Below, one piece after another: positions 14,909 to 49,396 of a stretch of 64,000 nt of DNA (the first letter of the stretch is position 1; every line of letters begins with the position of its first letter). Made by a program: the position numbers and the translations under genes. Origin of the DNA: Halarcobacter sp. (lineage in GTDB: Bacteria > Campylobacterota > Campylobacteria > Campylobacterales > Arcobacteraceae); contig OY781089.1 in NCBI GenBank assembly GCA_963676565.1, forward strand, positions 2,336,001 through 2,400,000, in the 5' to 3' direction. The notes under the pieces are model-generated. The model saw only the letters and a list, made by a program, of their open reading frames with translations. It was not told the origin of the DNA and did not search any database.

Positions 14909-15184
14909 ATGAACAAAGCTGAATTTATTGATGCAGTTGCAGCAAAAGCTGGTTTATCTAAAAAAGATGCTAAAGGTGCAGTTGACGCTGTATTAGATAC
15001 AATTACTGAGACTTTAGTAAAAAAAGAAACTGTTAGTTTCATCGGGTTTGGTACTTTTAGTACTGCTGATAGAGCTGAGAGAACTGCAAAAGTTCCTGGA
15101 ACAGACAAAACTGTTAAAGTTCCAGCTACAACTGTAGCAAAATTCAAAGTTGGTAAAGCTTTAAAAGAAGCAGTAGCTAAGTAA
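14909..15184 (+). CDS. hup: DNA-binding protein HU
   Basis: MNKAEFIDAVA...GFGTFS...KFKVGKALKEAV; AAGGAG RBS. Confidence 0.96.
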   Translation: MNKAEFIDAVAAKAGLSKKDAKGAVDAVLDTITETLVKKETVSFIGFGTFSTADRAERTAKVPGTDKTVKVPATTVAKFKVGKALKEAVAK

Positions 15185-15208: not shown

Positions 15209-15241
15209 AAAAAGGGTCTATCGTAAGATAGGCCCTTTTTT
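15209..15241 (+). terminator. Intrinsic terminator of hup
   Basis: AAAAAGGGTCTATC-GTAA-GATAGGCCCTTTTTT. Confidence 0.85.
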
Positions 15242-15323: not shown

Positions 15324-15365
15324 GCCGCTATGGTGAAATTGGTAAACACGCCGGATTCAAAATCC
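15324..15365 (+). pseudogene. 5' half of host tRNA-Leu(CAA), broken by island insertion (attL)
   Basis: GCCGCTA TG GTG AAATTGGTAAA CAC G CCGGA TTCAAAA TCC followed by unrelated sequence; joins perfectly with 52254-52309. Confidence 0.9.
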
Positions 15366-15426
15366 AATGTTTAATTTCACTAGGTATTCGGTAATATAGG
15401 ATATAGATAGTTATTTAGAAATACGA

Positions 15427-15450
15427 GGGTATCACTTATGGGTATCACTT
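15427..15450 (+). repeat. Tandem GGGTATCACTT direct repeats, putative integrase arm-type sites (left end)
   Basis: Copies at 15427-15437 and 15440-15450; related copies at 52094 and 52116. Confidence 0.7.
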
Positions 15451-15460
15451 TACTTTTTGT

Positions 15461-15547
15461 GCCGCTATGGAGAAATTGGTAGACTCGAGAGATTCAAAAT
15501 CTCTTTTCAGCAATGAAGTGTCGGTTCGAGTCCGACTAGCGGTACCA
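15461..15547 (+). tRNA. Island-encoded complete tRNA-Leu(CAA)
   Basis: Acceptor GCCGCTA/TAGCGGT, D stem GAG/CTC, anticodon arm AGAGA-TTCAAAA-TCTCT, long variable arm TTCA-GCAA-TGAA, T arm GTCGG-TTCGAGT-CCGAC, discriminator A plus encoded CCA. Confidence 0.93.
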
Positions 15548-15678: not shown

Positions 15679-15987
15679 TTATTGCTCTTTAGTTATAAAC
15701 ATTATAAAAGCTGAAATAATTAGAATTGGTACAACTATATAAACTAAGTATACACCAACATAAGATACAGTTGTAACTGTAACCACTGTAAGTATTAAGC
15801 TCAACCAAAATATCATCGAAGCAGTATTATGAATATTTTTAAAACTTCCAAACCCTAACAATCCTAAGATTGTTAAAGCTGGAATTGAAAAGTATGTAGC
15901 ATATACACTAACATAAGAACCTGAACTTAATATTGCAATATATGAGATAAGAACAATGAAAAAAGCTAATCTTATTTTATCTCTCAT
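15679..15987 (-). CDS. Small four-TM membrane protein with an internal duplication
   Basis: 102 aa, hydrophobic; SYVSVYATYFSIP / SYVGVYLVYIVVP; starts 5 bp after the res stop. Confidence 0.6.
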   Translation of the reverse strand: MRDKIRLAFFIVLISYIAILSSGSYVSVYATYFSIPALTILGLLGFGSFKNIHNTASMIFWLSLILTVVTVTTVSYVGVYLVYIVVPILIISAFIMFITKEQ

Positions 15988-15992
15988 ATTTC

Positions 15993-18938
15993 TTACTTCA
16001 ATATATCACTAATTAACTGTGATAACTCAGGATTGTTAAGTTTAGTTTTGTATTCAACATTTACACCACTTTTTCTTAACTCTTTAAAAAAGGCTTCGGC
16101 ACTTTTAATCTGTAGTTTCTCTTTTGTAGTTATATCATCAAACTTTTCATAGCCTTTAGTTTCAACTACAAAATATAATTCTTTATCATCTTTCGATTCT
16201 ATTACATATCCAAAGTCTGGATTGTAGTTTCTTCCATGAGCTGTAGGAATATTTACTTTTGGTAGTTTTCCAAATACAGTAATTCTTTTATCACTAGATT
16301 CATCTATAGTTATCTTTTCAATAGTACTATCAACTTCCATAAAGTCTTCATTATAGATTGACTTTTCTACTATGTTCTTAGATTTTATTTTATAAGTTTC
16401 AACACCTAAACTACCCTCAGGTATAAATTCTCTAACTTTACCATCTTTGTCAATGAGTGAGGTATTACTAGTCTTTATCTCTTTTAGATCATATGAAATT
16501 TTATTGATTATAGTATCGTAAATAGCACTTACTAATTGCTCTTCAATTTTCTTAAGTGCTAAGTTTTCATTTTGTGGAATCAAATCAAACTTTTCTTTTT
16601 TAATTCCATGTAAAACTTTTGCAACTGTTTGCATACTAAGTTTTGTGTTATTAGATAGTGCTTTAATAAATTCATAAAGAGTAAATATTGAGTGAGTTTC
16701 TACTTTTACAGTATCTTTATCACTATCATACTTTTCACTATCTTCTATATTTTTATCTCTTTTAACAATGATATCTTGCCCACTTATTGTAAAGTTATCA
16801 TCTATCTTCTTTTTAGCCGTATTTATTAATGTAATACTATTAATATCATATTTAACCACAGCATCATAATTTAAATTGTCCCATAAAGCTTTAAACTTTT
16901 TAAAATTCTCTTGATGAATTTTAATTTTACCCTTATCTTTTTTCTTACCACTTCTGTCTTTTGCTTTTACTCTAGTAGATGTTTTAAAGAAGCTATCAAA
17001 ATACTCTTTAAGCTTTTGAGTATCACAACCTTTCATTTCTAAAGACTCCAGTTCTTTTGACTTAGTACTATAATCTTCTTTTGAAATAGTTATTTCACTA
17101 TTACCCTCATCATCAATATCTATGAAACCTTTAGTTTGTAAGTTTGTAAGAATATTAACTGCAGCAAAGGCATTGGCTGCAATTCCATTTTCTGAAATGA
17201 CTTCTGCTGTAAATAATTTTGTTACCTGTTTAATACTATTTTCACTTATCTCTTTTTGAATAGATGTTACAAAGTTTTCTTCTGTCGATGGAACTACTAC
17301 AAAAAGCTCATTTATAAACTCAAAGTTACTGTCTTCTTGAGTAATTCTTTTCCCATCTTGATCTACAGCAAGTCTTAATCCCCTACCTATTTGTTGTAGT
17401 TTTGAAATTTTAGAGTTACTTGGTGCTAATTTACATAGAGTCATTACATTTGGATTATCCCAACCCTCTTGTAAAGCCCATTGTGAAAAAATAAATCTTA
17501 AGTCACTATCAAAAGATAGTAACTCTTCTTTCTTATTTAAAATTAGCTCAATAGCTTCTGCTTCATCGCCCTCTTTTTTAGATTTAGCAAAGTATCCACT
17601 ATGAATTTGGTTTAAACTATCTTTTGTCTTTAGAAGATACTTTTCATAATCTTCATCTAGATCATCTCTTTTTAGTACTTCATTTAGGTTTTTGAGATAT
17701 AACTTTTCAAAAAGTTTTGCTAGTTCACCATTAGTACCCTCATCAGTAAGATACTTATCAACTCTATCTATAAAGAAAAGACAAAGTGCTTTAATATCCA
17801 TTTTAAAAAGCTCTTCTTCTCTTTCAAAATGGTTTTTTATAGCAGTATCAACAATAACCTTTTGCATCTCATCAAGAAGTACACCATAACTTTCACTAAC
17901 TCCTAAAGGTAAAGAGATACCATTGGTAAATAAGGTTTCACTCTTTGTAATCTTTTCAACAACATAACTATTTAGATATTCAATATCTACTTTCTCTCCT
18001 AAATTCTCACCCTTTATAAGTACTGTTTTTTTATTTTTAGAATTGATGTCCTTGTATTCTATAGTTGCTTTATAATCTTTTTGAGTTTTACCTTCTATTT
18101 TAGTAAGAGCAATAGTATGGTTATCTACATTTTCATTTCCAACTGTATCAACTGTAATAGCCTTAACAAGTCCTCTACTAAATGCATCTACACTATCGAG
18201 TATATAAATAAGATTTTTATATTCATCACCTTTAAATGTTGCACCAAACCTTAGTGTAAAAAGAGCATTAAATGCTTTTAAGTATTTTGCAGTTTGTTTA
18301 CCTTCAAATCTATGTGGTTCATCAATTATAATTACAGGTCTAAGATATGAGATAGCTTCCATATAACTTTTTGCACGACCTATAAGGCTTTGCTCTATTT
18401 TACTTTTATTTATATTGTTAGAAGCTTTATTAAATGATTGATACGTTGATACAAGTACTGAAATATTTTGATCACTTGCATTGATATAGTTTAAAACTGT
18501 TTTCTCACTATAGTTATATACTGATATTTGTTTTCCATACTCTTTGACAAAGAACTCTTTTGTAATTTTAATATTTTTAATCGTACCTTGTCGTGTAGGA
18601 TTAGACGGTACTAAGATTATAAACTTTGAAAGTCCATAATCTCGGTTTAATCTATAAATTGATTCTAAAAATGTAAAAGTCTTACCGGTACCAGTTTCCA
18701 TCAATGTATCAACTACAAGTTCATCTTTGATAGATACTTCCCCAATATCTACTTTATTTGACTTTCTAACCTTTTCAATATTATTTACTAAAATACTTTT
18801 AGAATATTCAAGCTCAAAAGACGGGTTACTTTTTCTATTATCATTTTTAGTAAATGATATATTTTTAAATACATCACTTATACTATTTACTGCTTGTTCT
18901 TGATAATCAAGTCTATCAAACTTTATTTTTAAAGACAT
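15993..18938 (-). CDS. res: Type III restriction-modification endonuclease/helicase subunit Res
   Basis: METGTGKT, IIDEPH, LRFGATF, ALQEGWDNPNV, QQIGRGLRL, C-terminal YNPDF...VVETKG. Confidence 0.93.
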   Translation of the reverse strand: MSLKIKFDRLDYQEQAVNSISDVFKNISFTKNDNRKSNPSFELEYSKSILVNNIEKVRKSNKVDIGEVSIKDELVVDTLMETGTGKTFTFLESIYRLNRDYGLSKFIILVPSNPTRQGTIKNIKITKEFFVKEYGKQISVYNYSEKTVLNYINASDQNISVLVSTYQSFNKASNNINKSKIEQSLIGRAKSYMEAISYLRPVIIIDEPHRFEGKQTAKYLKAFNALFTLRFGATFKGDEYKNLIYILDSVDAFSRGLVKAITVDTVGNENVDNHTIALTKIEGKTQKDYKATIEYKDINSKNKKTVLIKGENLGEKVDIEYLNSYVVEKITKSETLFTNGISLPLGVSESYGVLLDEMQKVIVDTAIKNHFEREEELFKMDIKALCLFFIDRVDKYLTDEGTNGELAKLFEKLYLKNLNEVLKRDDLDEDYEKYLLKTKDSLNQIHSGYFAKSKKEGDEAEAIELILNKKEELLSFDSDLRFIFSQWALQEGWDNPNVMTLCKLAPSNSKISKLQQIGRGLRLAVDQDGKRITQEDSNFEFINELFVVVPSTEENFVTSIQKEISENSIKQVTKLFTAEVISENGIAANAFAAVNILTNLQTKGFIDIDDEGNSEITISKEDYSTKSKELESLEMKGCDTQKLKEYFDSFFKTSTRVKAKDRSGKKKDKGKIKIHQENFKKFKALWDNLNYDAVVKYDINSITLINTAKKKIDDNFTISGQDIIVKRDKNIEDSEKYDSDKDTVKVETHSIFTLYEFIKALSNNTKLSMQTVAKVLHGIKKEKFDLIPQNENLALKKIEEQLVSAIYDTIINKISYDLKEIKTSNTSLIDKDGKVREFIPEGSLGVETYKIKSKNIVEKSIYNEDFMEVDSTIEKITIDESSDKRITVFGKLPKVNIPTAHGRNYNPDFGYVIESKDDKELYFVVETKGYEKFDDITTKEKLQIKSAEAFFKELRKSGVNVEYKTKLNNPELSQLISDILK

Positions 18939-18941
18939 TGA

Positions 18942-20810
18942 TTATCCTCTAAATCTTAATTTATCAGGTTTAATACCAAGCTTTGAAATATTACTTTCAA
19001 GCTCTAGAGTAAATTTATCATCACTTATATTTGGAGAATACACAGTAATATACTCACACTCTTTTTTATCTTTTAAAGCATCTACTAATTCATCAGATGT
19101 TATATCTCCAAGAATAAAGGCTACATTTGACGCAAGATAAAGCTTATCTATTATAAGTTCTTCATGTTTTATACTAAAAGGTAATGCTTCTGCAACAAAT
19201 AGATTATAAAGTATCTCTTCATTAGATTCTATATCAGGTTTTTCCATCATAGCTAACAAATCATCTTGACTTACTTCTTCTAGTGATTTTTGGTAGATTT
19301 TTTGTTTTTGATCTTCTACAATTTCAAAAATTCTAAAACCAATATCTCCATCATTCACTTTATTTCCAGCTCGCATTAACCTTTCTGCTGTAATTTCAAA
19401 AATATTAATAGGTTTATTGAGCTTAGTTAAAAAGTCAATTCTTTTCTTTATAGCTTCTTTTTCTTTTTGAGTCAATCCTGTTGTGTATTCTATTTTTTCA
19501 TCTAGTTGAACTAATATAAATTTTACTTTTTCATCTTTACTAAAAACTGCATGACCTGTTGAGCCAGAACCTGCGAAAAAATCTAAAACAATATCATTGT
19601 CTTTTACATTTGCTATATCTATTAAGTTCTTTATTAATTTAGTTGGTTTTGGGTTTGTAAAAATACCTTTTTCATTTTCAAAAAGTTCTGCAAGTTCATC
19701 TGTAGCCTCTTGATTATTTCCAAATTTATCATGAGCCCACCAGTTTGTAGCACATTGTCCTTCTTGTTCTCTCTCAAATTTAAAATACTTTTTTCTAGGA
19801 AAACCATCACCGTTTTTTGTAAAAATTATTCTATTATCATTTTTTAATTCCAAAAATGTTTTTTCTTCTCCCATCCATGTTTCATTAAATTTTTTTCCTG
19901 TAGGACTTTCAATTATATATTTACTACCATCTTGTCCTTCCCCTGCTTTCCAAGGCTTAGAAGCCCATTCACCTCTAGGATCATTGTCTGGATTTGAAAA
20001 TGTACCTGTAAGACCTATTTTACCTACACCAGATTTTTTATATTCCTCTTTATCTTTTGAATACACTAAAATATGTTCTGTAACCAATGCAATCATTTTG
20101 TTTTTATCATTTGGCTGATTAGAACGTCTTCTCCAATGAATATGACCTTCAAAGTTATCTCCACCAAACACTTCATCACAAAGTAATTTAAGTTGAGCAA
20201 CTTCATTATCATCAATTGATATAAAAATTACACCATTATCTTTTAACAAGTCTTTTGCAAGCAAAAGTCTAGGATACATAAAACTAAGCCATCCACTATG
20301 AGTTTTTGCTCCTTGGATATTTTCTATATAATCTATATACTCTTTATCATAACCAAGTTCTTCAAGTGTTTGCTCAGTTGAAGTAGTAAAGTCATCATTG
20401 TAAACAAAACCATCATTTTTAGTGTTATAAGGTGGATCAATATATATCATTTTAATAGATTCAAAGTAGTTTTGACGAAGTATTTTTAAAGCATCAAGGT
20501 TATCACCTTTAATAAGAATATTTTCTGTTTCATTCCAGTTTTTTGAATCACCTTTTAAAGGCTTTAATACTTTATAGTTTTTTTCAAATGCCTTATGATA
20601 AGCCTCTTTTTTACCAACCCAGTTAAGACCATAGCCATCTTCTCTTATTTCTGCTTTTGAAGGGTCTAGACTCATCTGCAATTTTTGAGGGTCAATAACA
20701 TATTTACCATTTTCATCTACAGTTACGGCATGAGGAAACTGTTTTTTTAATAACTCATAATTTATATCATTTATACTTTGTTCTTTTATAACATTAATTT
20801 TTTTATGCAT
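18942..20810 (-). CDS. mod: Type III RM adenine methyltransferase Mod
   Basis: GDNLDALK, IYIDPPYNT, HSGWLSFMYPRL, LDFFAGSGSTG; 3 bp upstream of res. Confidence 0.93.
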   Translation of the reverse strand: MHKKINVIKEQSINDINYELLKKQFPHAVTVDENGKYVIDPQKLQMSLDPSKAEIREDGYGLNWVGKKEAYHKAFEKNYKVLKPLKGDSKNWNETENILIKGDNLDALKILRQNYFESIKMIYIDPPYNTKNDGFVYNDDFTTSTEQTLEELGYDKEYIDYIENIQGAKTHSGWLSFMYPRLLLAKDLLKDNGVIFISIDDNEVAQLKLLCDEVFGGDNFEGHIHWRRRSNQPNDKNKMIALVTEHILVYSKDKEEYKKSGVGKIGLTGTFSNPDNDPRGEWASKPWKAGEGQDGSKYIIESPTGKKFNETWMGEEKTFLELKNDNRIIFTKNGDGFPRKKYFKFEREQEGQCATNWWAHDKFGNNQEATDELAELFENEKGIFTNPKPTKLIKNLIDIANVKDNDIVLDFFAGSGSTGHAVFSKDEKVKFILVQLDEKIEYTTGLTQKEKEAIKKRIDFLTKLNKPINIFEITAERLMRAGNKVNDGDIGFRIFEIVEDQKQKIYQKSLEEVSQDDLLAMMEKPDIESNEEILYNLFVAEALPFSIKHEELIIDKLYLASNVAFILGDITSDELVDALKDKKECEYITVYSPNISDDKFTLELESNISKLGIKPDKLRFRG

Positions 20811-20868
20811 TAATTTTCTTACCTTATATTAAAGTTGATATTGTATTAAAATTCTTGTTATGAGATGA

Positions 20869-21774
20869 TTATAATAAAGCTAATTTATCCATATGTTTGT
20901 TTAAATTAAGTAGAACATCATAAATTTCTTTTGCACAAGAACTATAATCATTTGATTTAATAATTGGTAAACTATTTTCTATTCCTTTAGCTGAATTTCT
21001 AATAGTTATTTTTGTATTTGAATGTGTATCAGACCAAAAAACAACAACTAAAGGAACATCTAAAAGTTTACAAAAATCATCAAGAACACTAAATCTAGTT
21101 GAATCTGCCGTATATTTTTGGATAGACTCTTCCTCTAAGATTCTTCCTTGTGTATCAGACTTATATTCTAAAATAGCTTGAACATTATAGTTTTCATCCA
21201 TTAGAATACCATCAGCATCGCCAGGGAAAGCTATTTTCCATTGATCTCTTGGGATATTTGCCAAGTAATATTCTAATCTTGTAGGAATAAATGTAACTGG
21301 TTTTCGTGTAGCTCTTTTTTCATAATTTTTCAACAGAACTCTTAAACCATCAACATTAATTCTTTTTACTTTTTTTTCTATGTTAATTTTGGGGAATAAT
21401 ATTATTTCCTTCTTTAAAGCATCTTCATCATCTTTTGGATAATTATATGGAGTAAAAACACAAGATAGATCACATTCAAGTTTTTTACTAAATTTTCTAG
21501 CAATATTAAAATCTACTTCTTTATCCATTTCATCAAATAAAATTCGTGCTAAGTCAGCCAACTCTGTATCCTTGACAAGTTCTTGATTATATTCACGACA
21601 ATATAATAATAAAGTTACTCTATTTCCATTTTTAGGAATAACATATCCATCAAAACCAATTATTTTATGCGTTGAATTAATTATTCTCTCCAGTTCTAGT
21701 ATTAAGTTACCTTTAGCAGGTTTTCTTTTATATTTTCTATTATCATGTTCTCTTGTTATTCTTTCATAAAGCAT
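20869..21774 (-). CDS. Putative PD-(D/E)XK nuclease
   Basis: PGDADGIL...AILEYKSD motif; lies inside the defence array. Confidence 0.5.
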   Translation of the reverse strand: MLYERITREHDNRKYKRKPAKGNLILELERIINSTHKIIGFDGYVIPKNGNRVTLLLYCREYNQELVKDTELADLARILFDEMDKEVDFNIARKFSKKLECDLSCVFTPYNYPKDDEDALKKEIILFPKINIEKKVKRINVDGLRVLLKNYEKRATRKPVTFIPTRLEYYLANIPRDQWKIAFPGDADGILMDENYNVQAILEYKSDTQGRILEEESIQKYTADSTRFSVLDDFCKLLDVPLVVVFWSDTHSNTKITIRNSAKGIENSLPIIKSNDYSSCAKEIYDVLLNLNKHMDKLALL

Positions 21775-21791
21775 ATTAAACTTTAACTCCC

Positions 21792-24700
21792 TTATTTGAA
21801 ATATTTATAGCTTCTTTTGTCAAAGGCAGGTCTTGTACCTTCTAAGATATCAACTATACACTGATTGATTTCAGAATCTTCTATAGCTCCACTTTTAACA
21901 GTAAATCTATTATTATCTTGTTTATCAATACTTGCATAAATAATTTGTTCAGCATCTGCAACAACTGCTAGATTGGGATTATGAGTTACCATAATAATCT
22001 GCCGCCTTTTTTTAGCTAACTTTATAAATTTAACAACAATTTTATATACACTCTGATTATCTAAATTATCTTCTGGTTGATCTATAATTAATGGGATTTC
22101 TTCCTTATCAAGCATTAGATAAAATACTAATAGTAATGCACCTTTTTCGCCAGGAGATAACTCAACAAGATTTTTATTATCTAGTTTTAACTCGTAATTA
22201 GGAAGTAGGTAATCTAAATTAAAAAGATACGAATAAAAAGTCTCAATATTATCTACTTGATCAACAATTATTCTAGCTTCACCTTCTCTATCTTCTCTTT
22301 TATCAACTTCTAGATAAGTAATAAGCTCTTCTAGAATATCTTTAAAGTCTTCTTTTAAATCTAGATTCTTTGTTTCTATAATTTCTCTAAGTTTTACTTT
22401 ACCTTCTTCTGAACCATAAAAACTTCCCATTTTGTTTTGCTTAATAAATTTAAAAAAGTCTATCTCAAAACTATTAAGCTTATAAGTTGCATCAATTGCG
22501 ATATTATAATTTGACAGTAATTCTGTATATTGATTTAATGTTATATCAATAGTTTCCTTTAATGATTTAAAGACTTCAACTATTTCGAACTTTTTATCAT
22601 ATATCTCAAGAGATAAGTTAATCCTTTCTTCTCTTTTTTGATTTAAATCACTATCTAAGTCATTTTCAATATATTTTAATTTACCTCTATAATATTTTAA
22701 TGTACCAGTTGTTTCTTCATCACCAATAATTTCTTTACTCTTTTCTTTCCAACTATTAAATTCAGATAGATATTTTCTATACTCCTGTTCTGGTTTAGAT
22801 AACTCTTTTTCTGTAATTGTGATGAACTCTTTTATATTTTCAATATCAACTTTTAATCCTGTTCTTTGATTTTCACTCTCTGATAATATTTCTTTTTTTA
22901 GTCTCGATACCTCTTCATTTTTTGTTTTTATAGTTTCATCAATTTTTGATAAATCACTGTTAATTTTTAGTAAAGCATCAAATTCAAGTGTATACTTATC
23001 TAATAACTCTTGTTTTGATTGCCTAAATTCATTAATTGAAGTAATTAGTCTTTCAAAATCACTCTTTAATGTATTAAGTTCTGAGACTTCTATTAGTCGT
23101 ATCTTAATAGTTTGTTCATAAGATTTTAATATATTTTCTTTTTGTTCTAACTCAGCTTTTTTTTCATTAACACTTTTTATTAATTTTTCTTGTTCTTCAT
23201 CAACTTCACCAGATTGTGAAGGATTAGCTATTTTAATAGGTCTATTTTTTTTATGGTCGAAAAGCTCTTTAAATTTTAATTCATAATTATTTTGTAGAAA
23301 TTCTTTAAAGGATGATAGCTTATGATTTTCTAATTTAATAATCTCTTGATTTATGTTACTTATTTTAGGGATAATTGTTTTAATATCTTCGTTAATGATG
23401 TTAGTTTTTATATCAATTAATTCATCAAAACTATCAGTTCCAAGCTTTTGTTCATCTGGTAAATGTGAAAAAACAACTTTTTTTAAAGCTTTTTCAAATC
23501 CTTCACCTTCTAAATCATTACAAAGCTCTTCAAAATAGTTTTGTGGTAAATATCGTACTCTTTCAGGTCCATTAATATCTGAATTATCGTTTAAGTTAGA
23601 AATAGTTTGCTCTCCAGATTCATAATGTAATGTAGCATTAAAGTTTTCAGCTAACTTTTTCTTTTTAAATTTTCTAGTATTTAAAAAACTAAAGTGATTC
23701 TCTTTGTGACTATTTCCTAGAAGTGCAATAATATCAGACAAAGCACTTTTACCACTTCCTTTATTCCCAATAATTGCTACAAGTTCATTATTTAATTTGA
23801 GGCTTATATCATCAAACCAAATTCCTTTAGAACCATTATAAGTAGCAGTTTTATCTATATTAAGTTCTTTAACATACTTTGTTCTATTATCTTTTACTCT
23901 TTTTAAAACCTCAGGTTCTTCTCCTATAAAAACCCTTTCTTCATATTCATGTATTACTTGCTTTAATCCTTCAAATGTTGGATTCGCTTTAATCCATGTT
24001 AGTGTATTCCCAAGTTTATCTTTATTATCTGATGAACTAAATGAGTGAGCATCACTACAATCTAATAAATATGAATTAACACCCTCATTTTTTAACTTTT
24101 CCTTACTTTTCTCATAGTTTTCTTTACTATCTGTTGAAATAAAAACGAAGTTTGCCTCATTTATTATTGTTTTTTTATCAGTTACTGATCCAGTCCATCT
24201 CATTGCATCCCATTCTGTTTTCCCAACTGCTAACAAAAATTTATCTTTAAAGTAATGAGATTCTAATGCTTTTTTTACTTGATCGTAACTATGAGTAAAA
24301 TTACTAAATCCAACTTTTAAATCTGAACCACTTATTGATACAGTTGCACTTTTTTTGATTTTTTTTCCTAAATCAGATAAAGATTCTTTTGTAATTACTC
24401 CAAAGAACGAGATACTATCTTGATTAAATTCATCAATTGGAGAAAGTGTATAGTTAACTTGTATAGCATTTAAAAATTGACTTTCTATTGTTTCTGCACT
24501 TATTTCATCTGAAAAAATTATATGTAAATTTACTCGCTTCCAAGCTTTATCATCTAGATTACCATACTTATCAATACGAAGTTCAACTACTGGCAGAAAT
24601 AAATCTATATTAGACATCCTTCCTTGACTTTTATATTTCAAAACTTCTTTGTAACCATCCAAAAAAATATAATCATTAATGCCAAGTACTTTTATATCTT

Positions 24701-24836
24701 CAGGTAAACTTTCAATGTCATGAACAAAATTTTCCCAAGCATCACTTGTATCTCCACCATAATGCTGTTCGATTGATTTTGGCGTGTGAACGTGTAAATC
24801 CCATTTTCTCCACTCTGAACCTCTACTAAAACTCAT
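21792..24836 (-). CDS. PHP-domain/ABC-type ATPase fusion (TrlF-like; Ppl-type anti-phage protein)
   Basis: GSEWRKWDLHVHTP, CSDAH, TWIKANPTFEGL, Walker A GNKGSGKS, LSPGEK, IIDQPEDNLDN, VTHNPN. Confidence 0.85.
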   Translation of the reverse strand: MSFSRGSEWRKWDLHVHTPKSIEQHYGGDTSDAWENFVHDIESLPEDIKVLGINDYIFLDGYKEVLKYKSQGRMSNIDLFLPVVELRIDKYGNLDDKAWKRVNLHIIFSDEISAETIESQFLNAIQVNYTLSPIDEFNQDSISFFGVITKESLSDLGKKIKKSATVSISGSDLKVGFSNFTHSYDQVKKALESHYFKDKFLLAVGKTEWDAMRWTGSVTDKKTIINEANFVFISTDSKENYEKSKEKLKNEGVNSYLLDCSDAHSFSSSDNKDKLGNTLTWIKANPTFEGLKQVIHEYEERVFIGEEPEVLKRVKDNRTKYVKELNIDKTATYNGSKGIWFDDISLKLNNELVAIIGNKGSGKSALSDIIALLGNSHKENHFSFLNTRKFKKKKLAENFNATLHYESGEQTISNLNDNSDINGPERVRYLPQNYFEELCNDLEGEGFEKALKKVVFSHLPDEQKLGTDSFDELIDIKTNIINEDIKTIIPKISNINQEIIKLENHKLSSFKEFLQNNYELKFKELFDHKKNRPIKIANPSQSGEVDEEQEKLIKSVNEKKAELEQKENILKSYEQTIKIRLIEVSELNTLKSDFERLITSINEFRQSKQELLDKYTLEFDALLKINSDLSKIDETIKTKNEEVSRLKKEILSESENQRTGLKVDIENIKEFITITEKELSKPEQEYRKYLSEFNSWKEKSKEIIGDEETTGTLKYYRGKLKYIENDLDSDLNQKREERINLSLEIYDKKFEIVEVFKSLKETIDITLNQYTELLSNYNIAIDATYKLNSFEIDFFKFIKQNKMGSFYGSEEGKVKLREIIETKNLDLKEDFKDILEELITYLEVDKREDREGEARIIVDQVDNIETFYSYLFNLDYLLPNYELKLDNKNLVELSPGEKGALLLVFYLMLDKEEIPLIIDQPEDNLDNQSVYKIVVKFIKLAKKRRQIIMVTHNPNLAVVADAEQIIYASIDKQDNNRFTVKSGAIEDSEINQCIVDILEGTRPAFDKRSYKYFK

Positions 24837-24839
24837 TGT

Positions 24840-26855
24840 CTATTCTCCTAAACTTTTTTTATCTTCTAACACATCCATCATAGAACCATCTACTAAAACC
24901 GTATCTAACTCTTTTTTAGGTTTAATATTTGACACTTTCTTTAACATGGTTACTTGACTTATCAAATTACCACGCCCACCACTAAGCTTTTTAAATGCTT
25001 CATCATAGTTAGTTCTAGCAGTTTCAAGTCCTTTATCTACTTTCTTTAAATCATCTATAAATCCATGGAACTTTTTATATAGTTCTTCTGCCCTTTTATA
25101 CACATCTGCAATATTCTGTGCTTGTCTTTCATATCTCCACGTATTTTCAACTGCTCTTAATGCTACAAGAAGTGTAGTAGGACTAACTAATATAATCTTT
25201 TGTTTAAAGGCTTCATCGTATAAATTAACATCATTATCTAGTGCTAAAAGTAAAGCTCCTTCTATTGGCACAAACATAAATATAAAGTCTAAACTATTTA
25301 CATTTTGTAAATCTTCATACTTTTTATTTGCAAGCCCTTTGATATGATCTTTTACAGATTTAATATGATTCTTAAGATATATTTGTTTAAGACTATCATC
25401 TTCTTCTGCCATATAATCATTATAAGCTGTAAGTGATGTCTTCGCATCTATAATAATATGTCTATTGTCAGGTAAATACACAATTACATCAGGTCTGAAA
25501 GGTTTATTTTCATCATCTTTTAAACTAACTTCTCTTTTAAATTCATGTCCTTCTCTTAGCCCTGAACTCTCAAGTACTTTTTCAAGTACCATTTCACCCC
25601 ATTTACCTTGCTTCTTACTATCACTTCTTAGTGCATTTGTAAGGTTATGAGCTTCTGCACTCATTTTTTGATTTAGTTCTTTTAGTGTTTTTAGTTCTGC
25701 AGAAAGTAGACTTCTATCTTTTGCTTCTTTATCATATACATCTTCAACTTTCTTTTTAAAATCTATAAGCTGTGCTTTCATAGGATTTAAAATTAACCCT
25801 AAATCTTTTTGATTTTGTTCACTAAATTTTTTACTATTATCAGTGAAAATTTTGGTTGCTACATTTTCAAATTCCAGTTTTAATTTTTCTTCACTATTAT
25901 GTAATATTTGTAATTTCTCTTCTATAGCTTTTTTTTGTTCTTCAAGTTGAGTTTGCAATTGAGATATAGTAGCATTATCTTTAGTTACTTGAACTTGTAA
26001 CTCTTTTTTATCATCTGTTAATGTATTAATTGTTTGTTTTAGATCACTGATATATGATTCTTTATCAGATAATATTTTTTTAGTATTTTGTACACTTTCA
26101 TTTACTTTTGTTTCTAATTCAGATATCTCTGATTTATATTTCTTTATCTGTTCGTTATAATCTGAATTAGTTGATTTTAAAGTTTGACTTTCATCTTTTA
26201 ACTCTTCAATTCTTTTATTTAAAGAAGTAGACAGTTCTGTATTTTTTTCTTTTTGCTCTTCAAATGAAGTTTTATATTTTGATAAGTCTTCTTTTAATTG
26301 TCCTATTTCTAAAGACTTACTTTCATTTAACTCTTTCAACTGTATATTTTCATTTTTTAACTCTTCAATTCGTTTATTCAAAGAGCTAGATAACTCAATA
26401 TTCTTTTCTTTTTGTTCTTCAAACGAAGTTCTATATTTTGATAAATTTTCTTTCAATTGCCCTATCTCTAAAGACTTATTTTCCTCAGAATCTTTTAACT
26501 GTATATTTTCATTTTTTAAATCATCAATTCTTTCAGTTTGTGACTTTTCAAAGGCATTATATTTATTTATCTGCTCATCGAGTAAAGCTTTTGTTTTTGT
26601 CAAATCTTCTTTAAATTGATTTGATTCTTGCTTTTTTTCCTCTAGCTGTTTAGAAGATTCATTGTATAAATCTTTTATATTATTAGCGTTATTAAGACTC
26701 ACAGTTAACTCTGAGTTTTTTATCTCTAAATTTTGTCTATCATTTGATAAATCTTTAATCTCAGTATTCTTATCTTTAACTGTTTTATAAAATAATAATC
26801 CTCCTATAACTAATATAGCTGAAAACAATGCTACCAGTACTTCAAAGTTTTCCAT
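24840..26855 (-). CDS. rmuC: RmuC family protein with N-terminal TM and expanded coiled coil
   Basis: QGKWGEMVLE, RPDVIVYLP, IIDAK, FMFVPIE, SPTTLLVALR, GGRGNL. Confidence 0.85.
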   Translation of the reverse strand: MENFEVLVALFSAILVIGGLLFYKTVKDKNTEIKDLSNDRQNLEIKNSELTVSLNNANNIKDLYNESSKQLEEKKQESNQFKEDLTKTKALLDEQINKYNAFEKSQTERIDDLKNENIQLKDSEENKSLEIGQLKENLSKYRTSFEEQKEKNIELSSSLNKRIEELKNENIQLKELNESKSLEIGQLKEDLSKYKTSFEEQKEKNTELSTSLNKRIEELKDESQTLKSTNSDYNEQIKKYKSEISELETKVNESVQNTKKILSDKESYISDLKQTINTLTDDKKELQVQVTKDNATISQLQTQLEEQKKAIEEKLQILHNSEEKLKLEFENVATKIFTDNSKKFSEQNQKDLGLILNPMKAQLIDFKKKVEDVYDKEAKDRSLLSAELKTLKELNQKMSAEAHNLTNALRSDSKKQGKWGEMVLEKVLESSGLREGHEFKREVSLKDDENKPFRPDVIVYLPDNRHIIIDAKTSLTAYNDYMAEEDDSLKQIYLKNHIKSVKDHIKGLANKKYEDLQNVNSLDFIFMFVPIEGALLLALDNDVNLYDEAFKQKIILVSPTTLLVALRAVENTWRYERQAQNIADVYKRAEELYKKFHGFIDDLKKVDKGLETARTNYDEAFKKLSGGRGNLISQVTMLKKVSNIKPKKELDTVLVDGSMMDVLEDKKSLGE
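26195..26530 (-). repeat. 159-bp (53-aa) tandem repeat inside rmuC, just over two copies
   Basis: RIDDLKNENIQLK...SLEIGQLKENLSKYRTSFEEQKEKN / RIEELKNENIQLK...SLEIGQLKEDLSKYKTSFEEQKEKN; anchors at 26202, 26361, 26520. Confidence 0.85.
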
Positions 26856-26890
26856 TAATATCTCCTAATTATAAATTATCACATTATATT

Positions 26891-26924
26891 TTAAGTAAGT
26901 CACCTAGTTAGGTGACTTACTTAA
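26891..26924. repeat. 16-bp perfect inverted repeat with 2-nt spacer at the jetD/rmuC junction
   Basis: TTAAGTAAGTCACCTA-GT-TAGGTGACTTACTTAA. Confidence 0.85.
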
Positions 26925-27788
26925 GTATTCTTGTTCAAGTGTGATTTTTCGATTTTTTATAAAATCTATAAGTTCCTTTAATTTTACATCATTTTTTGAG
27001 TCAATATTTAAATATCTTGTTTGGTTGGAATAGTCTTTTTTATAATTCTTTTCTACCATTATTTTATAAATATTTTCAGGAATCAAAAAAGAATGTGATC
27101 TGCAATGTCTAAGCCTAGGTAATATAGAGTTAAGATAAATATTTATACCCGCTAAATCAAAATCACCAAAATGAATATACTCTCCTTTAAAGGACTCCAG
27201 CCATTTGTATTGGAAGGAAGTCTTAAATTCACTAAGAGACAAAAATATATATTGTTTATCTTGATTAAAAAGGTGTCTATATCTATTTATAAACCAAACA
27301 ACTTGAGGATTTTCTACACCTACTAAAACAATATCATTATCCAATTCTAATTTAGTACTATAATGCATAAATAAGCCTGTACCTTCTATAGGATAGATAT
27401 ATTGTTTTACTCCATTTAAAGTAACTTCTATCTTCTCAAATACACTAATCATAAGTCCGTTAAAGCTTTTTGATTCTATTCTTTTAGTATCTGAGAATTT
27501 TTCAGCGACTTCATCACGACTTTTTGATTTTTCACTTTCTTCAATAAAATAGTCTATATCTTCTATACAATTAATGTTATAACCATTTGATTTTAGAACT
27601 GCAAATAAAGTATTTATATCTTTTAAATACATACATTGTGGCTTTCCATCTATATCTATTGCATTACACTCTTTAAGTGAATTTATAAGTTTTTGAGAAG
27701 ATATCTCTTTTTTTAATATATATTCATCTTTTAAAAGTTTTTTTAGTGCTTCAAAATTTCTTGTATTAATATTTATAGCCATTACCAT
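26904..27788 (-). CDS. jetD: Wadjet JetD/MksG-like Toprim nuclease
   Basis: VGVENP, YIHFGDFDLAGINIY and LEQE Toprim-like motifs; follows the SMC gene. Confidence 0.75.
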   Translation of the reverse strand: MVMAININTRNFEALKKLLKDEYILKKEISSQKLINSLKECNAIDIDGKPQCMYLKDINTLFAVLKSNGYNINCIEDIDYFIEESEKSKSRDEVAEKFSDTKRIESKSFNGLMISVFEKIEVTLNGVKQYIYPIEGTGLFMHYSTKLELDNDIVLVGVENPQVVWFINRYRHLFNQDKQYIFLSLSEFKTSFQYKWLESFKGEYIHFGDFDLAGINIYLNSILPRLRHCRSHSFLIPENIYKIMVEKNYKKDYSNQTRYLNIDSKNDVKLKELIDFIKNRKITLEQEYLSKSPN

Positions 27789-30700
27789 TCATCCATAGCA
27801 TTTTGTGCATCTATAAGACTTAGCTCAACATGATTTGAGCTTTCTCTTGTTCCCATATATATTCTAGGATATGCATCAATAATATCGTCATCATTTGCAG
27901 CAGTTCCATTGATAAATACAAAATCCAATAATTTTGCATAATTCATAAGTTCAGTAAAGTAATCTGCAGATATCTGACCAATTTCATCAATAATACAATG
28001 ATATTTTATGTTCTCGCTATTGGCAAATTTCTTTGTAACCATACGTAATAATGTTATATAAATAATTGCTTTTACCATTATTGATGTTCCGTTACTACCT
28101 ATATTATCTAATGTTGCAATACCTTTTGTAACCTGGTTGTTTTCACTTACATCAAAAGTTAATGTACTTATATCTGAAACAGTAATATTCTTTTTAAATG
28201 TTCTTTCTAATATTACTTGAAGATCTTGAGCTATTTTTACTAATTCATCTTTTACTGATTCTGATCTTTCGCTATTTTCATAGCCAATAAGCATATTTGC
28301 ACTTAACATATCACCTATGTTTTCAATTCTACTGACAATTTCATCATTACCTATATTTCTGAAATTTAACTTGATAAAATCAATCACTGTAATATTTGTA
28401 ATACCATCATTAATAGTTGAATTAATTTTATTTACATCTTTTACAATACTATCAAATGTGCCTTTGATATGGGATATTCTACTAACAGCATCATTTATAG
28501 TTTCAATTAGAATATGTAACTGTAAGCTTGTTCCTTCAATATCAAATTTTGTTTTGATAAAATCTGAGTATGATTTTGCAATTACAATATACTGTTCGAT
28601 ATTATCATCGAAACTATTTATATCAGATTTTGATTTGAGCTTCATCATATTATCACTAGGAATATCATCAACAATTCTTCTAGTATCAAGTTTAATTGTT
28701 TTTTCTTTTTCATCTTGTTGTATTTCAAGAGTTTTGTATCTCTCTAAAAGAGTAATATTTTGTTTAGAGTTCAAGAGAGATACAACCTCTTTTTCGATAT
28801 AAGAATCATAGTTTATATTAGTAGTTATTTCAAATTGAGATAATGCATTTTTAAAATCTTTAAATGATCTGGCATGAGATTTCCAAATATTTATAGAATC
28901 CTCTAATTGCTTTAACACACCACCAATAACTTTTAATTCTTTTTCATAATAATCTTTTTCTTCAGTTCTTTGTTTATCTGTTTGCACTAACTGATCTTTT
29001 AATAAAGGGATTTGATTATAATTAGGTAATACTTCATCATCATATCTTTTAACTAAACCTTTATTATCTTGTATCTCTTTTATAGTTTTTGTTAATTGTT
29101 TAATTGTCTTATTATAAGAATCAAGTTCATCAGTATCAATATTCTGACTTCTTTTAATTTCATTATATATTTCATGTATCTTTTTATCTGACTCGTTGAC
29201 AAGGTTTTCATATTTTTTATTTATCGATTTAATGCTATTTTTACACAAAGAAAATTGAGCATTTAAATCCTTTTCTTTCCCCTCATATTTTGCATTTATC
29301 TCTTGAATAAAAGTATCTTTTTTTCTTTTCTTAGTAGAGATATATTCTATTAAAGTAGTTAAGCTTTCTCTGTCTTTTAAAAGTTGTTTCTTTGTTTCAA
29401 TTATTCTTTTATCATTTTCATCTTTTAAACGTGCTATCTCTTCATCTAATCTTCTTTGCTCATTTGCTATTTTTATCTCATAATCTTTAATTTTAGGACT
29501 TAAGTCATAAATTTCTCTTGACTTTTCTTTTATTGATTTTTTAAATTTATTAGATGAAGATTTTAGATTATCTTCAAGTCTTTTATATCTTATCTTATGA
29601 TTTGACACTAACTCATTTAGTTGTTTTTGAAGTGCTGTTTTATTATTCTCAAGGGTTTCTATATCATATTTACTTGCCATTGTTTCAATATCACCGTCAA
29701 TCACTAAACCATAAAAATTATCATTGCTAGTTTCAAGCGAAAACTTAAAGTTTTTTTCTTCAAATAAAATTTCATCATTTGCTATAGCTAAAATCTTTCT
29801 TTTATTTGGAACTTCATTTTTATTTAGAAAACCAAAAAGGTTGTTTTTTCCAATGTCTAATTTTTTATTAACTAACTCTATTTTCTCTTTTAGCTTACTT
29901 TTCTTATTGTTATATTGGCTAACTTCATCTTGAATTTTTTTATTAAGCTCTTCAAAACTAGCATCCCTTTGTTTTTCAAGTTCTAACTTTTCACTCTCTA
30001 ATACTTCTATACTTGATTCAATCGAACCTTTTAAAGTTATTAATCTATTAATCTCTTTTTCAAATTTAATAGAAGCATTACTCTCTAACTTTTGAGATGG
30101 TAATAATCTTAAAGTAGTCTCATCTTCTGATATTTTTTTATCTAATTGGTTATACTTAGTTGTTTTTAGTTCTATTTCTTCGTCAAATGCATTTATACTA
30201 TTTTTAAGCTCAACCTCTTTGTCCTTTGATAATTGTAGTATTTCTTCTGCAAGTTGTTCTTTTTTTTCTTCTAGTTGTATTTTTTCTTCTTCTTTTTTAC
30301 TATTAAAAGAAATTCGTTCTTTTTGTTTTTCTGTTTCCTCTTTAATATCAAGTTCTTCAAGGCTACTAGAAATTGCAACTACTTTAATTTCTAGATTTTT
30401 TTTCTGCTCTTCATATTTATTTTGTTTACTATCTTCTTCTATTAATCTTTCAATTTTATATTCATCAATAAATTTATTGTATGTAGTTTCATTACTTTTG
30501 ATAGTTTTATTAAGTTCTGCAATTTGATCGTTGTAATTAGTAGACTTTTTATCCCATTCATTCGACAACTTTTCACTTTTTTCAGTCTCTATCTTCTCTT
30601 GAGCATATAAATCTAGCTGTTTTGTTTCTATTACTTCACTTATTATATCTTTATTATAAGACATTGTTTCAAGTTCAAAAACAGTTTTATCTATTTCACT

Positions 30701-31489: not shown

Positions 31490-32045
31490 ATTCAACATCC
31501 TCAATAATATCTTCTACGAATTTAAATGATCTTAGTATTAAAAATTCTTCTTCCCTATTACCAATACTTTCAGCAAAACCATCATTTTTTAATCTTGTGA
31601 TGATTGAATCTATAGCTTCACGATTAGTTGACCTTTTCTTTAAAAAACTCATTTTATCAATCATTGCTTTTAATTCTATATCTCCATTTAACCTAGTTTC
31701 CATGTCACTTGCACTATACGGACCTGCATCTGATGAACCAATATCGCTATTTAACAATTTTAAAAATCTATATATATCAATATAGTCAACATAACCATTA
31801 GAATAAGGTTTGGGAATATTTTCATAAATATCAATAATAAAATAAAAAAAGCCTGTATCTGATCTTAATGTATATCCTATGATGCTATAATAATCTTTTA
31901 CATCTTGCTTGTATTGGTATATAAAATTGTATGCTTCTTTAATTTTATAATCTGAACTATTTTCATTAATGAATTTACCATTTACTCTACACTCTTCAAT
32001 CACCTGGAAAATATCTTTGTATTCTAGTAATTGCAATAAATCCAA
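31479..32045 (-). CDS. jetB: Wadjet JetB/MksE-like subunit
   Basis: 188 aa, NGKFI and DYYSIIGYTL...FFYF; positioned between kleisin-like and SMC genes. Confidence 0.65.
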   Translation of the reverse strand: MDLLQLLEYKDIFQVIEECRVNGKFINENSSDYKIKEAYNFIYQYKQDVKDYYSIIGYTLRSDTGFFYFIIDIYENIPKPYSNGYVDYIDIYRFLKLLNSDIGSSDAGPYSASDMETRLNGDIELKAMIDKMSFLKKRSTNREAIDSIITRLKNDGFAESIGNREEEFLILRSFKFVEDIIEDVEYEL

Positions 32046-32046
32046 T

Positions 32047-34503: not shown

Positions 34504-34523
34504 AAGTTAATACCAATTTTTGC

Positions 34524-35523: not shown

Positions 35524-35535
35524 CTATTAAATCTC

Positions 35536-49383: not shown

Positions 49384-49396
49384 AGATAGTTCCTAA

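What the first reader, a model, noticed from the sequence alone, without database searches (positions are those of the whole stretch)
15324..15547. Island breaks the host tRNA-Leu(CAA) and carries its own complete replacement tRNA
Seen: the host 5' half (15324-15365) and 3' half (52254-52309) rejoin into a perfect tRNA-Leu(CAA) through the 13-bp core GGATTCAAAATCC. Neither junction regenerates a tRNA, unlike the usual attP that duplicates the 3' half. A full isoacceptor lies 95 bp inside the left end, with compensatory changes in the D stem (GTG/CAC to GAG/CTC) and anticodon stem and a different variable arm, which indicates selection for function. I recall similar tRNA complementation in some actinobacterial temperate phages; I know of no report for a capsid-less Campylobacterota island.
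Basis: partly seen in the sequence, partly recalled or inferred. Interest (0 to 1): 0.85.

Follow-up and report, generated by a model that had tools for sequence, protein, structure and literature searches.

The report
Island splits tRNA-Leu, brings its own
A 36.9-kb mobile defence island has cut the bacterium's only tRNA-Leu(CAA) gene in two and carries a complete substitute gene beside its insertion site, a trick so far described for phages and seen here in non-phage elements of several bacterial groups.

Summary
Window 15324-15365 and 52254-52309 are the two halves of a tRNA-Leu(CAA) gene. They share the core GGATTCAAAATCC. A simulated excision gives an 85-nt tRNA that matches the intact gene of an island-free relative at 84 of 85 positions. 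Neither junction holds a tRNA.

The tRNA at 15461-15547 is the only tRNA-Leu(CAA) among the genome's 49 tRNA genes. It scores 53.9 bits against Rfam's tRNA model.

The island (15366-52253) has a tyrosine integrase beside attR, GGGTATCA repeats on both sides of the core, and defence cargo. No capsid or terminase gene was found.

This is the logic of "tRNA-dependent lysogeny", described for actinobacteriophages in 2024 (PMC10865867). Here it sits in a non-phage island.

The same layout recurs: a host 5' fragment, then 71-106 nt, then a co-oriented full tRNA. I found it in 3 of 25 genomes of the genus, in 2 further genomes of the order, and in 12 of 112 loci from a scan across all prokaryote species. 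More distant relatives of the integrase rebuild the same tRNA in the usual way.

One caveat matters. No tRNA-Leu(CAA) was found in 5 of the 25 genus genomes, so the substitute probably spares fitness rather than life.

Verdict: real, a new variant of a known kind, moderately interesting.

The parts
14909..15184 (+). hup (HU-type DNA-binding protein), the host gene on the left flank
   Evidence: PF00216, E 1.1e-29. The hup and tRNA-Leu(CAA) neighbourhood is kept in 18 of 23 genus loci.
15209..15240 (+). terminator-like hairpin after hup, so the host tRNA gene must have had its own promoter in 15241-15323
   Evidence: 14-pair stem followed by a T run.
15324..15365 (+). host tRNA-Leu(CAA) 5' half (attL side), ending in the core
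   Evidence: Identical to positions 1-42 of the intact G010 gene (100% over 1-42).
15353..15365 (+). 13-bp core GGATTCAAAATCC at attL: the 7-nt anticodon loop plus 3 bp of stem on each side
15366..15460 (+). island P' arm, the 95-bp spacer between the core and the island tRNA
   Evidence: Not found in island-free G010.
15427..15450 (+). two direct repeats GGGTATCACTT (starts 15427 and 15440), putative arm-type integrase sites
   Evidence: repeat at spacer offsets 62 and 75. GGGTATCA occurs 9 times in the window against 0.54 expected.
15461..15547 (+). island-borne complete tRNA-Leu(CAA), the only CAA tRNA in the genome
   Evidence: RF00005 53.9 bits against a gathering score of 29. Alignment.
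15679..50657 (.). island cargo: type III restriction-modification, SMC/Ppl-like ATPase, RmuC, MksE/DUF3584/DUF7281 (Wadjet-like), WYL regulator, LHH nuclease with SUKH immunity, HerA-like ATPase, dynamin-like GTPase, DUF932, Gam-like protein, Rad52-like recombinase, AbiEii
   Evidence: Pfam, PADLOC, PHROGs. No capsid, portal, tail or relaxase family was found.
50742..52034 (-). tyrosine integrase (430 aa), with its start facing attR
   Evidence: PF00589, E 1.4e-12. phrog_1 integrase, 1.1e-19. 38% identical over its full length to the integrase of the G014 island.
52094..52123 (+). two GGGTATCA repeats (52094 and 52116), putative P-arm integrase sites
52254..52266 (+). 13-bp core at attR
52254..52309 (+). 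host tRNA-Leu(CAA) 3' half (attR side)
   Evidence: 98% identical to positions 30-85 of the intact G010 gene. Also.

Best explanation
A 36.9-kb integrative island (15366-52253) inserted by tyrosine-integrase recombination into the anticodon loop of the host's single tRNA-Leu(CAA) gene. Its attP matches the host only over the anticodon loop and 3 bp of stem on each side (13 bp). The gene is therefore cut and not rebuilt.

The island carries a compact cassette: integrase, P-arm sites, core, P'-arm sites, then a complete tRNA-Leu(CAA). After insertion the island tRNA lies 95 bp downstream of the host 5' half, in the same orientation, and takes over UUG decoding.

Shown by sequence: the two halves, the empty site in a relative, the single copy, the well-formed tRNA, the arm-type repeats, and the recurrence of the design.

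Inferred:
- The tRNA is expressed and charged. It may be transcribed from the host tRNA promoter reading through the 5' half, or from a promoter in the P' arm.
- Carrying a whole tRNA frees the element from having to match the host's acceptor and T arms. It can then use any host whose tRNA-Leu(CAA) has this conserved anticodon stem-loop.
- The changed anticodon stem of the island tRNA may keep it from being a target of its own integrase. This last point is weakly supported.
For: Structure:
- Halves, core and tRNA.
- Simulated excision gives a tRNA matching 84 of 85 positions of G010's intact gene; neither junction holds a tRNA.
- G010 has hup, the tRNA and then the right-flank genes, with nothing between.
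- The island tRNA is the only CAA tRNA among 49 tRNA genes.
- It scores 53.9 bits on RF00005. The eleven island tRNAs tested score 50.4-59.8 bits, and the intact host gene of G010 scores 62.2.
- Stem changes are compensatory.
- GGGTATCA occurs 9 times against 0.54 expected. Four copies flank the core and two lie inside int.

Recurrence:
- 3 of 25 genomes of the genus.
- The G014 island (about 24.6 kb) has both ends, a 38%-identical integrase, its own arm motif GACACAA on both arms, and a different cargo with a relaxase.
- G403 and G409 have integrases 44% identical to the window's and share the design.
- 12 of 112 loci in the scan across all species show the design. One is an 8.9-kb Sedimenticola element with both ends and a 17-bp core.
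- 7 of 10 spacers hold a pair of exact direct repeats of at least 7 nt just upstream of the tRNA.

Host range: near-identical island tRNAs and arm repeats sit in hosts whose own 5' halves differ. Examples are G007 (GCCCGTA) against Poseidonibacter L115 (GCCTCTA), and G409 (GCCGCTA) against G403 (GCCTCCA).

Precedent: PMC10865867 (abstract and sections 5, 6, 10, 11 read).
Against: - There are no data on expression, processing or charging. No RNA run was listed.
- The consensus promoter scan found nothing upstream of the island tRNA. It found 3 sites in the region against 5.4 expected, none in 15241-15460.
- No tRNA-Leu(CAA) was found in 5 of 25 genus genomes (G005, G008, G011, G019, G024). TTG makes up only 6.4% of Leu codons here. 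The host might therefore tolerate the loss, and the tRNA need not be required.
- There is no evidence of excision. All four runs laid were contigs, and none joins across the island.
- No excisionase was identified.
- The self-immunity idea is weak, because host alleles also differ from one another in the anticodon stem.
Confidence: 0.8

Rival explanations
1. The island tRNA is not there to compensate. tRNA-Leu(CAA) is dispensable in this lineage, and the island-borne copy serves another end. It could be a spare that resists anticodon nucleases of competing defence systems, or it could adjust UUG decoding for island genes. On this view the broken host gene is simply tolerated.
For: - No tRNA-Leu(CAA) was found in 5 of 25 genus genomes.
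- TTG is a minor codon: 6.4% of Leu codons in host ORFs and 7.4% in the 16 island ORFs counted.
- The discussion of PMC10865867 raises tRNA-targeting defences as a possible selective force.
- tRNA-Leu(CAA), the leuX gene, is non-essential in E. coli (recalled, not checked here).
Against: - The tRNA always has the same anticodon as the gene that is cut.
- It always lies 71-106 nt from the crossover and is co-oriented with the host gene. This holds in elements with unrelated cargo: a defence island, an element with a relaxase, and an element with a primase.
- More distant relatives of the integrase that carry no whole tRNA carry the 3' part of the tRNA instead and rebuild the gene (G188, G357). 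An intact tRNA-Leu(CAA) is thus kept by one route or the other.
Confidence: 0.12
2. The layout is a decay product of an ordinary island. The element once rebuilt the tRNA at attL, and a later small insertion or rearrangement separated the host 5' half from the rest.
For: Ordinary islands at this same tRNA exist in the order (G188 and G357). Nine ordinary loci (full tRNA, then a 3' fragment) appeared in the scan across all species.
Against: - The tRNA at 15461-15547 is complete, with its own 5' half that differs from the host's.
- The 95-bp spacer carries the same repeat motif as the integrase-side arm.
- The same layout recurs with unrelated spacer sequences in at least 14 other assemblies.
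Confidence: 0.03
3. The host had two tandem tRNA-Leu(CAA) genes, and an island without a tRNA happened to hit the first.
For: Tandem full copies exist elsewhere (L111 and L150).
Against: - Island-free G010 has a single gene followed directly by the right-flank genes.
- No genus genome without the fragment has a second CAA tRNA at the locus: 16 of 16 loci with an intact gene.
- The sequence between the 5' half and the full tRNA carries the island's arm repeats.
- The host 3' half lies 36.9 kb away, beyond the integrase.
Confidence: 0.02

Closest known systems
Mycobacteriophages Gaia and Nebkiss (Cluster X): tRNA-dependent lysogeny at tRNA-Leu-CAA (PMC10865867, section 10 read)
   Same: Same tRNA isoacceptor is targeted. 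A tyrosine integrase acts on a very short common core (8 bp there, 13 bp here). No tRNA forms at attL. The element's own tRNA-Leu-CAA lies near int. A relative (Omega) has a 44-bp core that rebuilds the gene, as G188 and G357 do here.
   Different: Those are temperate phages of Mycobacterium; this is a non-phage defence island in an unrelated AT-rich host. The window integrase has no close match in 50,697 phage records (best 24% identity). The requirement for the tRNA was shown experimentally for that phage system and not here.
Mycobacteriophage Fionnbharth (K4) and Cluster L phages: tRNA-Lys-TTT (PMC10865867, sections 5-6 read)
   Same: A 10-17 bp core. Putative arm-type sites flank the core. 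A phage tRNA of the same isotype complements the cut gene.
   Different: A different tRNA is targeted. The phage tRNA lies elsewhere in the genome, overlapping gene 37 on the opposite strand. The host tRNA is single-copy and its loss is lethal. Here the tRNA abuts attP, and essentiality is doubtful.
Prophage Lj965 of Lactobacillus johnsonii, and phage-related sequences of Sinorhizobium meliloti
   Same: Reported as integrations that do not rebuild the tRNA, in elements that carry a cognate tRNA. Lj965 is known to me only from the discussion of PMC10865867. The S. meliloti case rests on a passage of PMC11476347.
   Different: Both are described as prophages or phage-related sequences. I read single passages only, so their layouts could not be compared.
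Ordinary tRNA-targeting genomic islands (Islander definition, PMC4383910, passages read; anticodon-loop sublocation of Williams 2002, recalled)
   Same: A tyrosine integrase. The crossover lies in the anticodon loop, with the stem as a symmetric flank. The integrase sits at one end of the island, and a displaced 3' fragment marks attR.
   Different: In ordinary islands attP holds the 3' part of the tRNA, so the gene is rebuilt as a host-island hybrid at attL. Here attP holds only the stem-loop, and a whole separate gene is supplied.

Membership tests
tRNA-dependent lysogeny (Guerrero-Bustamante & Hatfull 2024) | A tyrosine integrase recombines attP with an attB that overlaps a host tRNA gene | tested here: met
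   Integrase PF00589. The halves sit at both island ends, and the site is empty in G010. This is inferred from sequence; recombination was not assayed.
tRNA-dependent lysogeny (Guerrero-Bustamante & Hatfull 2024) | A short common core (about 8-17 bp), so that no functional tRNA is rebuilt at attL or attR | tested here: met
   The core is 13 bp. ARAGORN finds no tRNA at attL or attR.
tRNA-dependent lysogeny (Guerrero-Bustamante & Hatfull 2024) | [quoted passage not shown] | tested here: met
   tRNA-Leu(CAA) at 15461-15547, 53.9 bits on RF00005.
tRNA-dependent lysogeny (Guerrero-Bustamante & Hatfull 2024) | The disrupted host tRNA is single-copy and essential, so the element's tRNA is required for survival | tested here: inconclusive
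   Single copy: yes, 1 CAA tRNA among 49. Essential: doubtful, since none was found in 5 of 25 genus genomes. The requirement itself needs genetics.
tRNA-dependent lysogeny (Guerrero-Bustamante & Hatfull 2024) | The carrier is a temperate phage | tested here: not met
   No capsid, portal, tail or true terminase family among 27 island ORFs in Pfam or among 19 ORFs in PHROGs. The only PHROGs hit in the head-and-packaging category is a P-loop-only match of a HerA-like ATPase to a terminase family, in which no stretch passes on its own.
tRNA-dependent lysogeny (Guerrero-Bustamante & Hatfull 2024) | Pairs of putative arm-type sites flank the attP core | tested here: met
   GGGTATCA at 15427 and 15440, and at 52094 and 52116. 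There are 9 copies in the window against 0.54 expected. Binding was not assayed.
Ordinary tRNA-restoring genomic island (Islander definition) | [quoted passage not shown] | tested here: not met
   Island sequence next to the core on either side is not tRNA-like. No tRNA is found at either junction.
Anticodon-loop class of tRNA integration sites (Williams 2002, recalled) | The crossover segment is centred on the 7-nt anticodon loop, with the stem as inverted flanks | tested here: met
   The core is GGA, TTCAAAA, TCC. In 13 other cases homology ends 2-5 nt after the loop.
Integrative mobilizable or conjugative element | A relaxase, with or without a coupling protein | tested here: not met
   No relaxase family was found in the window island. 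The sister island in G014 does have a TrwC relaxase and a TrwB-type coupling protein.

The most novel reading that the evidence does not exclude
The int, attP and tRNA cassette may be a widespread, portable integration module of non-phage elements. It occurs in defence islands, mobilizable elements and primase-bearing satellite-like elements across at least three phyla.

By matching only the near-universal anticodon stem-loop of tRNA-Leu(CAA) and bringing a whole tRNA, it would uncouple integration from host tRNA sequence. As islands decay, it would leave their tRNA behind and so horizontally replace host tRNA-Leu(CAA) alleles. This would explain why the tRNA at the hup locus varies so much within one genus while tRNA-Leu(TAG) is nearly invariant.

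The fixed position of the tRNA, 71-106 nt downstream of the crossover and co-oriented, may let it be driven by the captured host tRNA promoter only once the element is integrated.
Probability: 0.35. Interest if true: 0.7.

Novelty: new variant of a known kind. Interest (0 to 1): 0.55.

Why it matters
- It extends a mechanism shown in actinobacteriophages in 2024 to non-viral mobile elements of Gram-negative lineages. The authors of that paper left this question open (discussion).
- It gives a simple rationale for host range. A whole portable tRNA avoids mismatched hybrid tRNAs.
- It implies that island-mapping tools built on the rule "regenerated tRNA plus displaced fragment" would take the island tRNA for the regenerated host gene and misplace attL by about 140 bp. 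This is inferred from Islander's filters as given in passages of PMC4383910.
- It suggests a route for horizontal turnover of a tRNA gene.
- The compact int, attP and tRNA module could serve as a self-compensating integration vector for hosts that have few genetic tools.

Tried and rejected
- Sequencing runs: no RNA holder was listed, so nothing can be said on expression.
- Reads: all four runs laid were Logan contigs. No contig joins 15365 to the right flank, and none shows a circular junction. Contigs drop rare variants, so this says nothing on excision. The low-depth joint 15369 to 15519 in X2 and X3 carries other letters between its two sides; I read it as intact tRNA-Leu genes of other organisms.
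- IMG/VR scan with the two-loop pattern: 0 of 10 hits hold a tRNA. The module was therefore not found in viral contigs with this exact pattern.
- Integrase against 50,697 phage records and 72,556 plasmid records: only distant matches, at most 26% identity.
- Consensus promoter scan: uninformative.
- First fuzzy-regex script: timed out; replaced by BLAST.
- Integrases of the Cellvibrionaceae and Aliarcobacter-MAG cases were not found with the window integrase as query. Their right ends were not found either.
- G007: no host 3' half was found in the assembly, and no integrase among the 12 ORFs of 150 aa or more in the 20 kb beyond the tRNA. It is either a remnant or cut by the contig end.
- Self-immunity of the island tRNA through its altered anticodon stem: kept only as a weak idea.
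- No supplementary files were read.

Full report
**Observation**

ARAGORN finds a single tRNA in the window, tRNA-Leu(CAA) at 15461-15547 on the + strand. Reading the sequence shows a tRNA 5' half at 15324-15365 and a 3' half at 52254-52309. Both contain GGATTCAAAATCC.

That 13-mer occurs exactly twice in the window. Shuffles give a mean of 0.16, and 2 of 100 shuffles reach two matches. The repeat alone is therefore weak evidence.

The context decides. A script that simulates precise excision yields an 85-nt tRNA-Leu(CAA) at the rejoined site. It yields no tRNA at attL or at attR taken alone. The rejoined gene differs at 1 of 85 positions from the intact gene of relative G010.

In the whole genome (49 tRNA genes) the island copy is the only tRNA-Leu(CAA). 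The other Leu tRNAs read TAA, TAG and GAG.

The hup flank was found in 23 of 24 other genomes of the genus. Among those 23 loci:
- 16 have one intact tRNA-Leu(CAA) directly after hup.
- 5 have none.
- 2 (G014 and G007) repeat the window's layout.

G010 is 96% identical over the flank. It has hup, the intact host-type gene and then, 43 bp later, the genes of the window's right flank. It has no copy of the island-type tRNA. The tRNA at 15461-15547 therefore came with the island.

**The island**

The integrase (50742-52034, minus strand, PF00589) faces attR.

GGGTATCA occurs 9 times in the window against 0.54 expected. Two copies lie 62 and 75 nt after the core at attL. Two lie 131-160 nt before the core at attR. 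Two more lie inside int. This is the pattern expected of arm-type sites on both arms of an attP.

The cargo is mostly defence genes: type III restriction-modification, RmuC, an SMC/Ppl-like ATPase, an MksE/DUF3584/DUF7281 set, AbiEii, a WYL regulator, a HerA-like ATPase, and an LHH nuclease with SUKH immunity. It also holds a Rad52-like recombinase, a Gam-like protein and DUF932. No capsid, portal, tail, true terminase or relaxase family was found. The island looks non-viral as far as these libraries can see.

**The island tRNA**

It scores 53.9 bits on RF00005, whose gathering score is 29. Eleven island tRNAs score 50.4-59.8 bits, and G010's host gene scores 62.2.

Compared with the host gene:
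- The acceptor stem is identical.
- The T arm is identical except for one loop base.
- One D-stem pair is flipped, T:A to A:T.
- Three of five anticodon-stem pairs change on both sides and stay paired.
- The variable arm is replaced.

**Recurrence**

The pattern GATTCAAAATC, a gap of 100-130 nt, then GATTCAAAATC hits 3 of 25 genomes of the genus.

G014 has a complete sister island of about 24.6 kb. It has a host 5' half, 89 nt and a full tRNA at one end. At the other end a 38%-identical integrase sits beside the host 3' half. Its own arm motif (GACACAA) lies on both arms. Its cargo includes a TrwC relaxase, a coupling protein and McrBC.

G007 has the 5' half and a full tRNA. No host 3' half was found in the assembly. 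No integrase was found among the 12 ORFs of 150 aa or more in the 20 kb beyond the tRNA.

A scan of one genome per prokaryote species gave 112 stretches, and I screened all of them (80):
- 12 loci from 11 assemblies show a 5' fragment followed by a full tRNA-Leu(CAA).
- 9 show the ordinary order, a full tRNA followed by a 3' fragment.
- 2 are tandem full genes.
- 89 have no tRNA at either motif.

One of the 12 loci duplicates a genus locus already counted. One (L066) is cut in the T loop, not the anticodon loop. The record titles name Aliarcobacter (two assemblies), Arcobacteraceae, Poseidonibacter, Sulfurimonas, Sedimenticola, Cellvibrionaceae, Paraglaciecola and Bacteriovoracaceae (two assemblies).

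The Sedimenticola element is complete at 8.9 kb. Its core is 17 bp. Its integrase has an arm-binding domain and sits beside attR. It has a PriCT-2/DUF5906 primase and the motif ATGTAGC on both arms.

In 7 of 10 spacers examined, a pair of exact direct repeats of at least 7 nt lies just upstream of the island tRNA.

**The integrase family**

Homologues at E of 1e-25 or better occur in 29 of 401 genomes sampled from the order, counting G000.

In the 30 loci returned, including the window's own L181:
- The window's own locus and the two closest homologues (44% identity, G403 and G409) sit next to an orphan tRNA-Leu(CAA) 3' half.
- Two more distant homologues (G188 and G357, 28-32% identity) also sit next to tRNA-Leu(CAA) sequence.
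- 8 lie next to a tRNA-Gln and tRNA-Met pair.
- 2 lie next to tRNA-SeC and 1 next to tRNA-Val.
- 14 have no tRNA within 1.5 kb.

G403 and G409 carry the replacing design. The spacer is about 106 nt, and one shared island tRNA sits in hosts whose own tRNA halves differ. G188 and G357 carry the ordinary design, with an identical 3' part duplicated and the gene rebuilt after hup.

The same integrase family at the same target therefore uses both solutions. This mirrors the phage pairs Gaia and Omega, and Cain and Ximenita, in PMC10865867.

**What is known**

Guerrero-Bustamante and Hatfull (mBio 2024, PMC10865867; I read the abstract and sections 5, 6, 10 and 11) define tRNA-dependent lysogeny. 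It has a tyrosine integrase, a core of about 10 bp, no rebuilt tRNA, and a phage tRNA of the same isotype that is required for viable lysogens. Their table includes Gaia, which has an 8-bp core in tRNA-Leu-CAA and its own tRNA-Leu-CAA near int. They cite prophage Lj965 and leave open how common the phenomenon is outside actinobacteriophages.

A passage of PMC11476347 reports similar replacement by phage-related sequences in Sinorhizobium meliloti. PMC12429752 looked for it in other prophages and did not find it.

Six full-text searches gave no report for a non-phage island or for Campylobacterota. This shows absence from that library only.

**How it most likely works**

Shown by sequence: cutting at the anticodon loop, no repair of the gene, a well-formed substitute 95 bp away in the same orientation, and arm-type repeats on both sides of the core.

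Inferred:
- The substitute is expressed and charged.
- Carrying a whole tRNA avoids a hybrid with a mismatched acceptor stem. For example, a hybrid of the host 5' half in L086 with that island's 3' strand would have three acceptor mismatches by my reading.
- This lets one module work in hosts with different tRNA-Leu(CAA) alleles, as seen for G403 against G409 and for G007 against L115.
- The constant short distance and shared orientation may let the host tRNA promoter drive the island tRNA after integration.

**Against a strict requirement**

No tRNA-Leu(CAA) was found in 5 of 25 genomes of the genus. This rests on three checks: no ARAGORN tRNA after hup, no BLAST match, and no tRNA-like pattern match. 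TTG is 6.4% of Leu codons. tRNA-Leu(UAA) may therefore cover UUG, which I take from recalled knowledge of wobble decoding.

The substitute more likely avoids a fitness cost than a lethal loss.

**Verdict**

The finding is real and correctly read. It is not a member of tRNA-dependent lysogeny in the strict sense, because the carrier is not a phage and essentiality is doubtful. It works the same way. I rate it a new variant of a known kind, with interest 0.55.

Noticed in passing
window 51189-51216 (minus strand): Two further GGGTATCA copies 20 bp apart lie inside the integrase ORF. They could be extra integrase-binding sites, for example for autoregulation, or chance.
   Followed up: no
window 52319-53086 (minus strand): A 255-aa ORF with no Pfam or PHROGs family lies directly right of attR. 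It is present in G000 and G014 and missing from island-free G010, where the tRNA is followed after 43 bp by the GGDEF/EAL gene region. It might be a leftover of an older insertion at the same tRNA.
   Followed up: partly
genus loci L012, L014-L017 (G011, G024, G019, G005, G008): Five species of the genus have no tRNA after hup, and no tRNA-Leu(CAA) was detected anywhere in them with BLAST or a tRNA-shaped pattern. The isoacceptor appears dispensable in that subgroup.
   Followed up: partly
genus loci L004-L026, alignment: The tRNA-Leu(CAA) at the hup locus is unusually variable within the genus, down to about 75-80% identity with different acceptor stems (for example G003, G020, G001, G021). 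The tRNA-Leu(TAG) match is the same in nearly every genome (43.7 bits, 77%). This fits repeated replacement by island-borne copies.
   Followed up: partly
L167 (G044:C1:297300-297900): The Sulfurimonas assembly holds a second, orphan tRNA-Leu(CAA) 3' half with the same 13-bp GGATTCAAAATCC junction. It lies on the opposite strand, 119 kb from the 5'-fragment-plus-tRNA locus. Its acceptor strand does not match that 5' fragment.
   Followed up: partly
L066 (Paraglaciecola MAG): A variant of the design. The host tRNA-Leu(CAA) fragment runs through the anticodon and variable arms and breaks in the T arm. A different full tRNA-Leu(CAA) follows about 60 nt later. The same strategy may exist at the T-loop integration site.
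   Followed up: no
L086 and L114 (one Aliarcobacter MAG, two contigs): The 5' fragment, spacer and island tRNA are identical on two long contigs of the same assembly. This is either a true duplication or a binning or assembly duplicate.
   Followed up: no
L026 (G020): This locus has an intact but divergent tRNA-Leu(CAA) after hup. It is followed by repeated AATGTAACTA motifs and an ORF start. It looks like a different, ordinary island at the 3' end of the same tRNA.
   Followed up: no
window 26904-33225: Four minus-strand ORFs resemble a Wadjet/Mks-type condensin defence set: DUF7281, a 1240-aa DUF3584 ATPase, MksE, and a 392-aa ORF with no family. None matched a PADLOC model at 1e-5.
   Followed up: no
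run X3, window 15076-15550: Contigs of a coded organism C carry hup, the same 5' half and a diverged spacer (20 differences and 6 gaps over 395 bp), together with an island tRNA identical over 15441-15550. This is another carrier of a related module.
   Followed up: no
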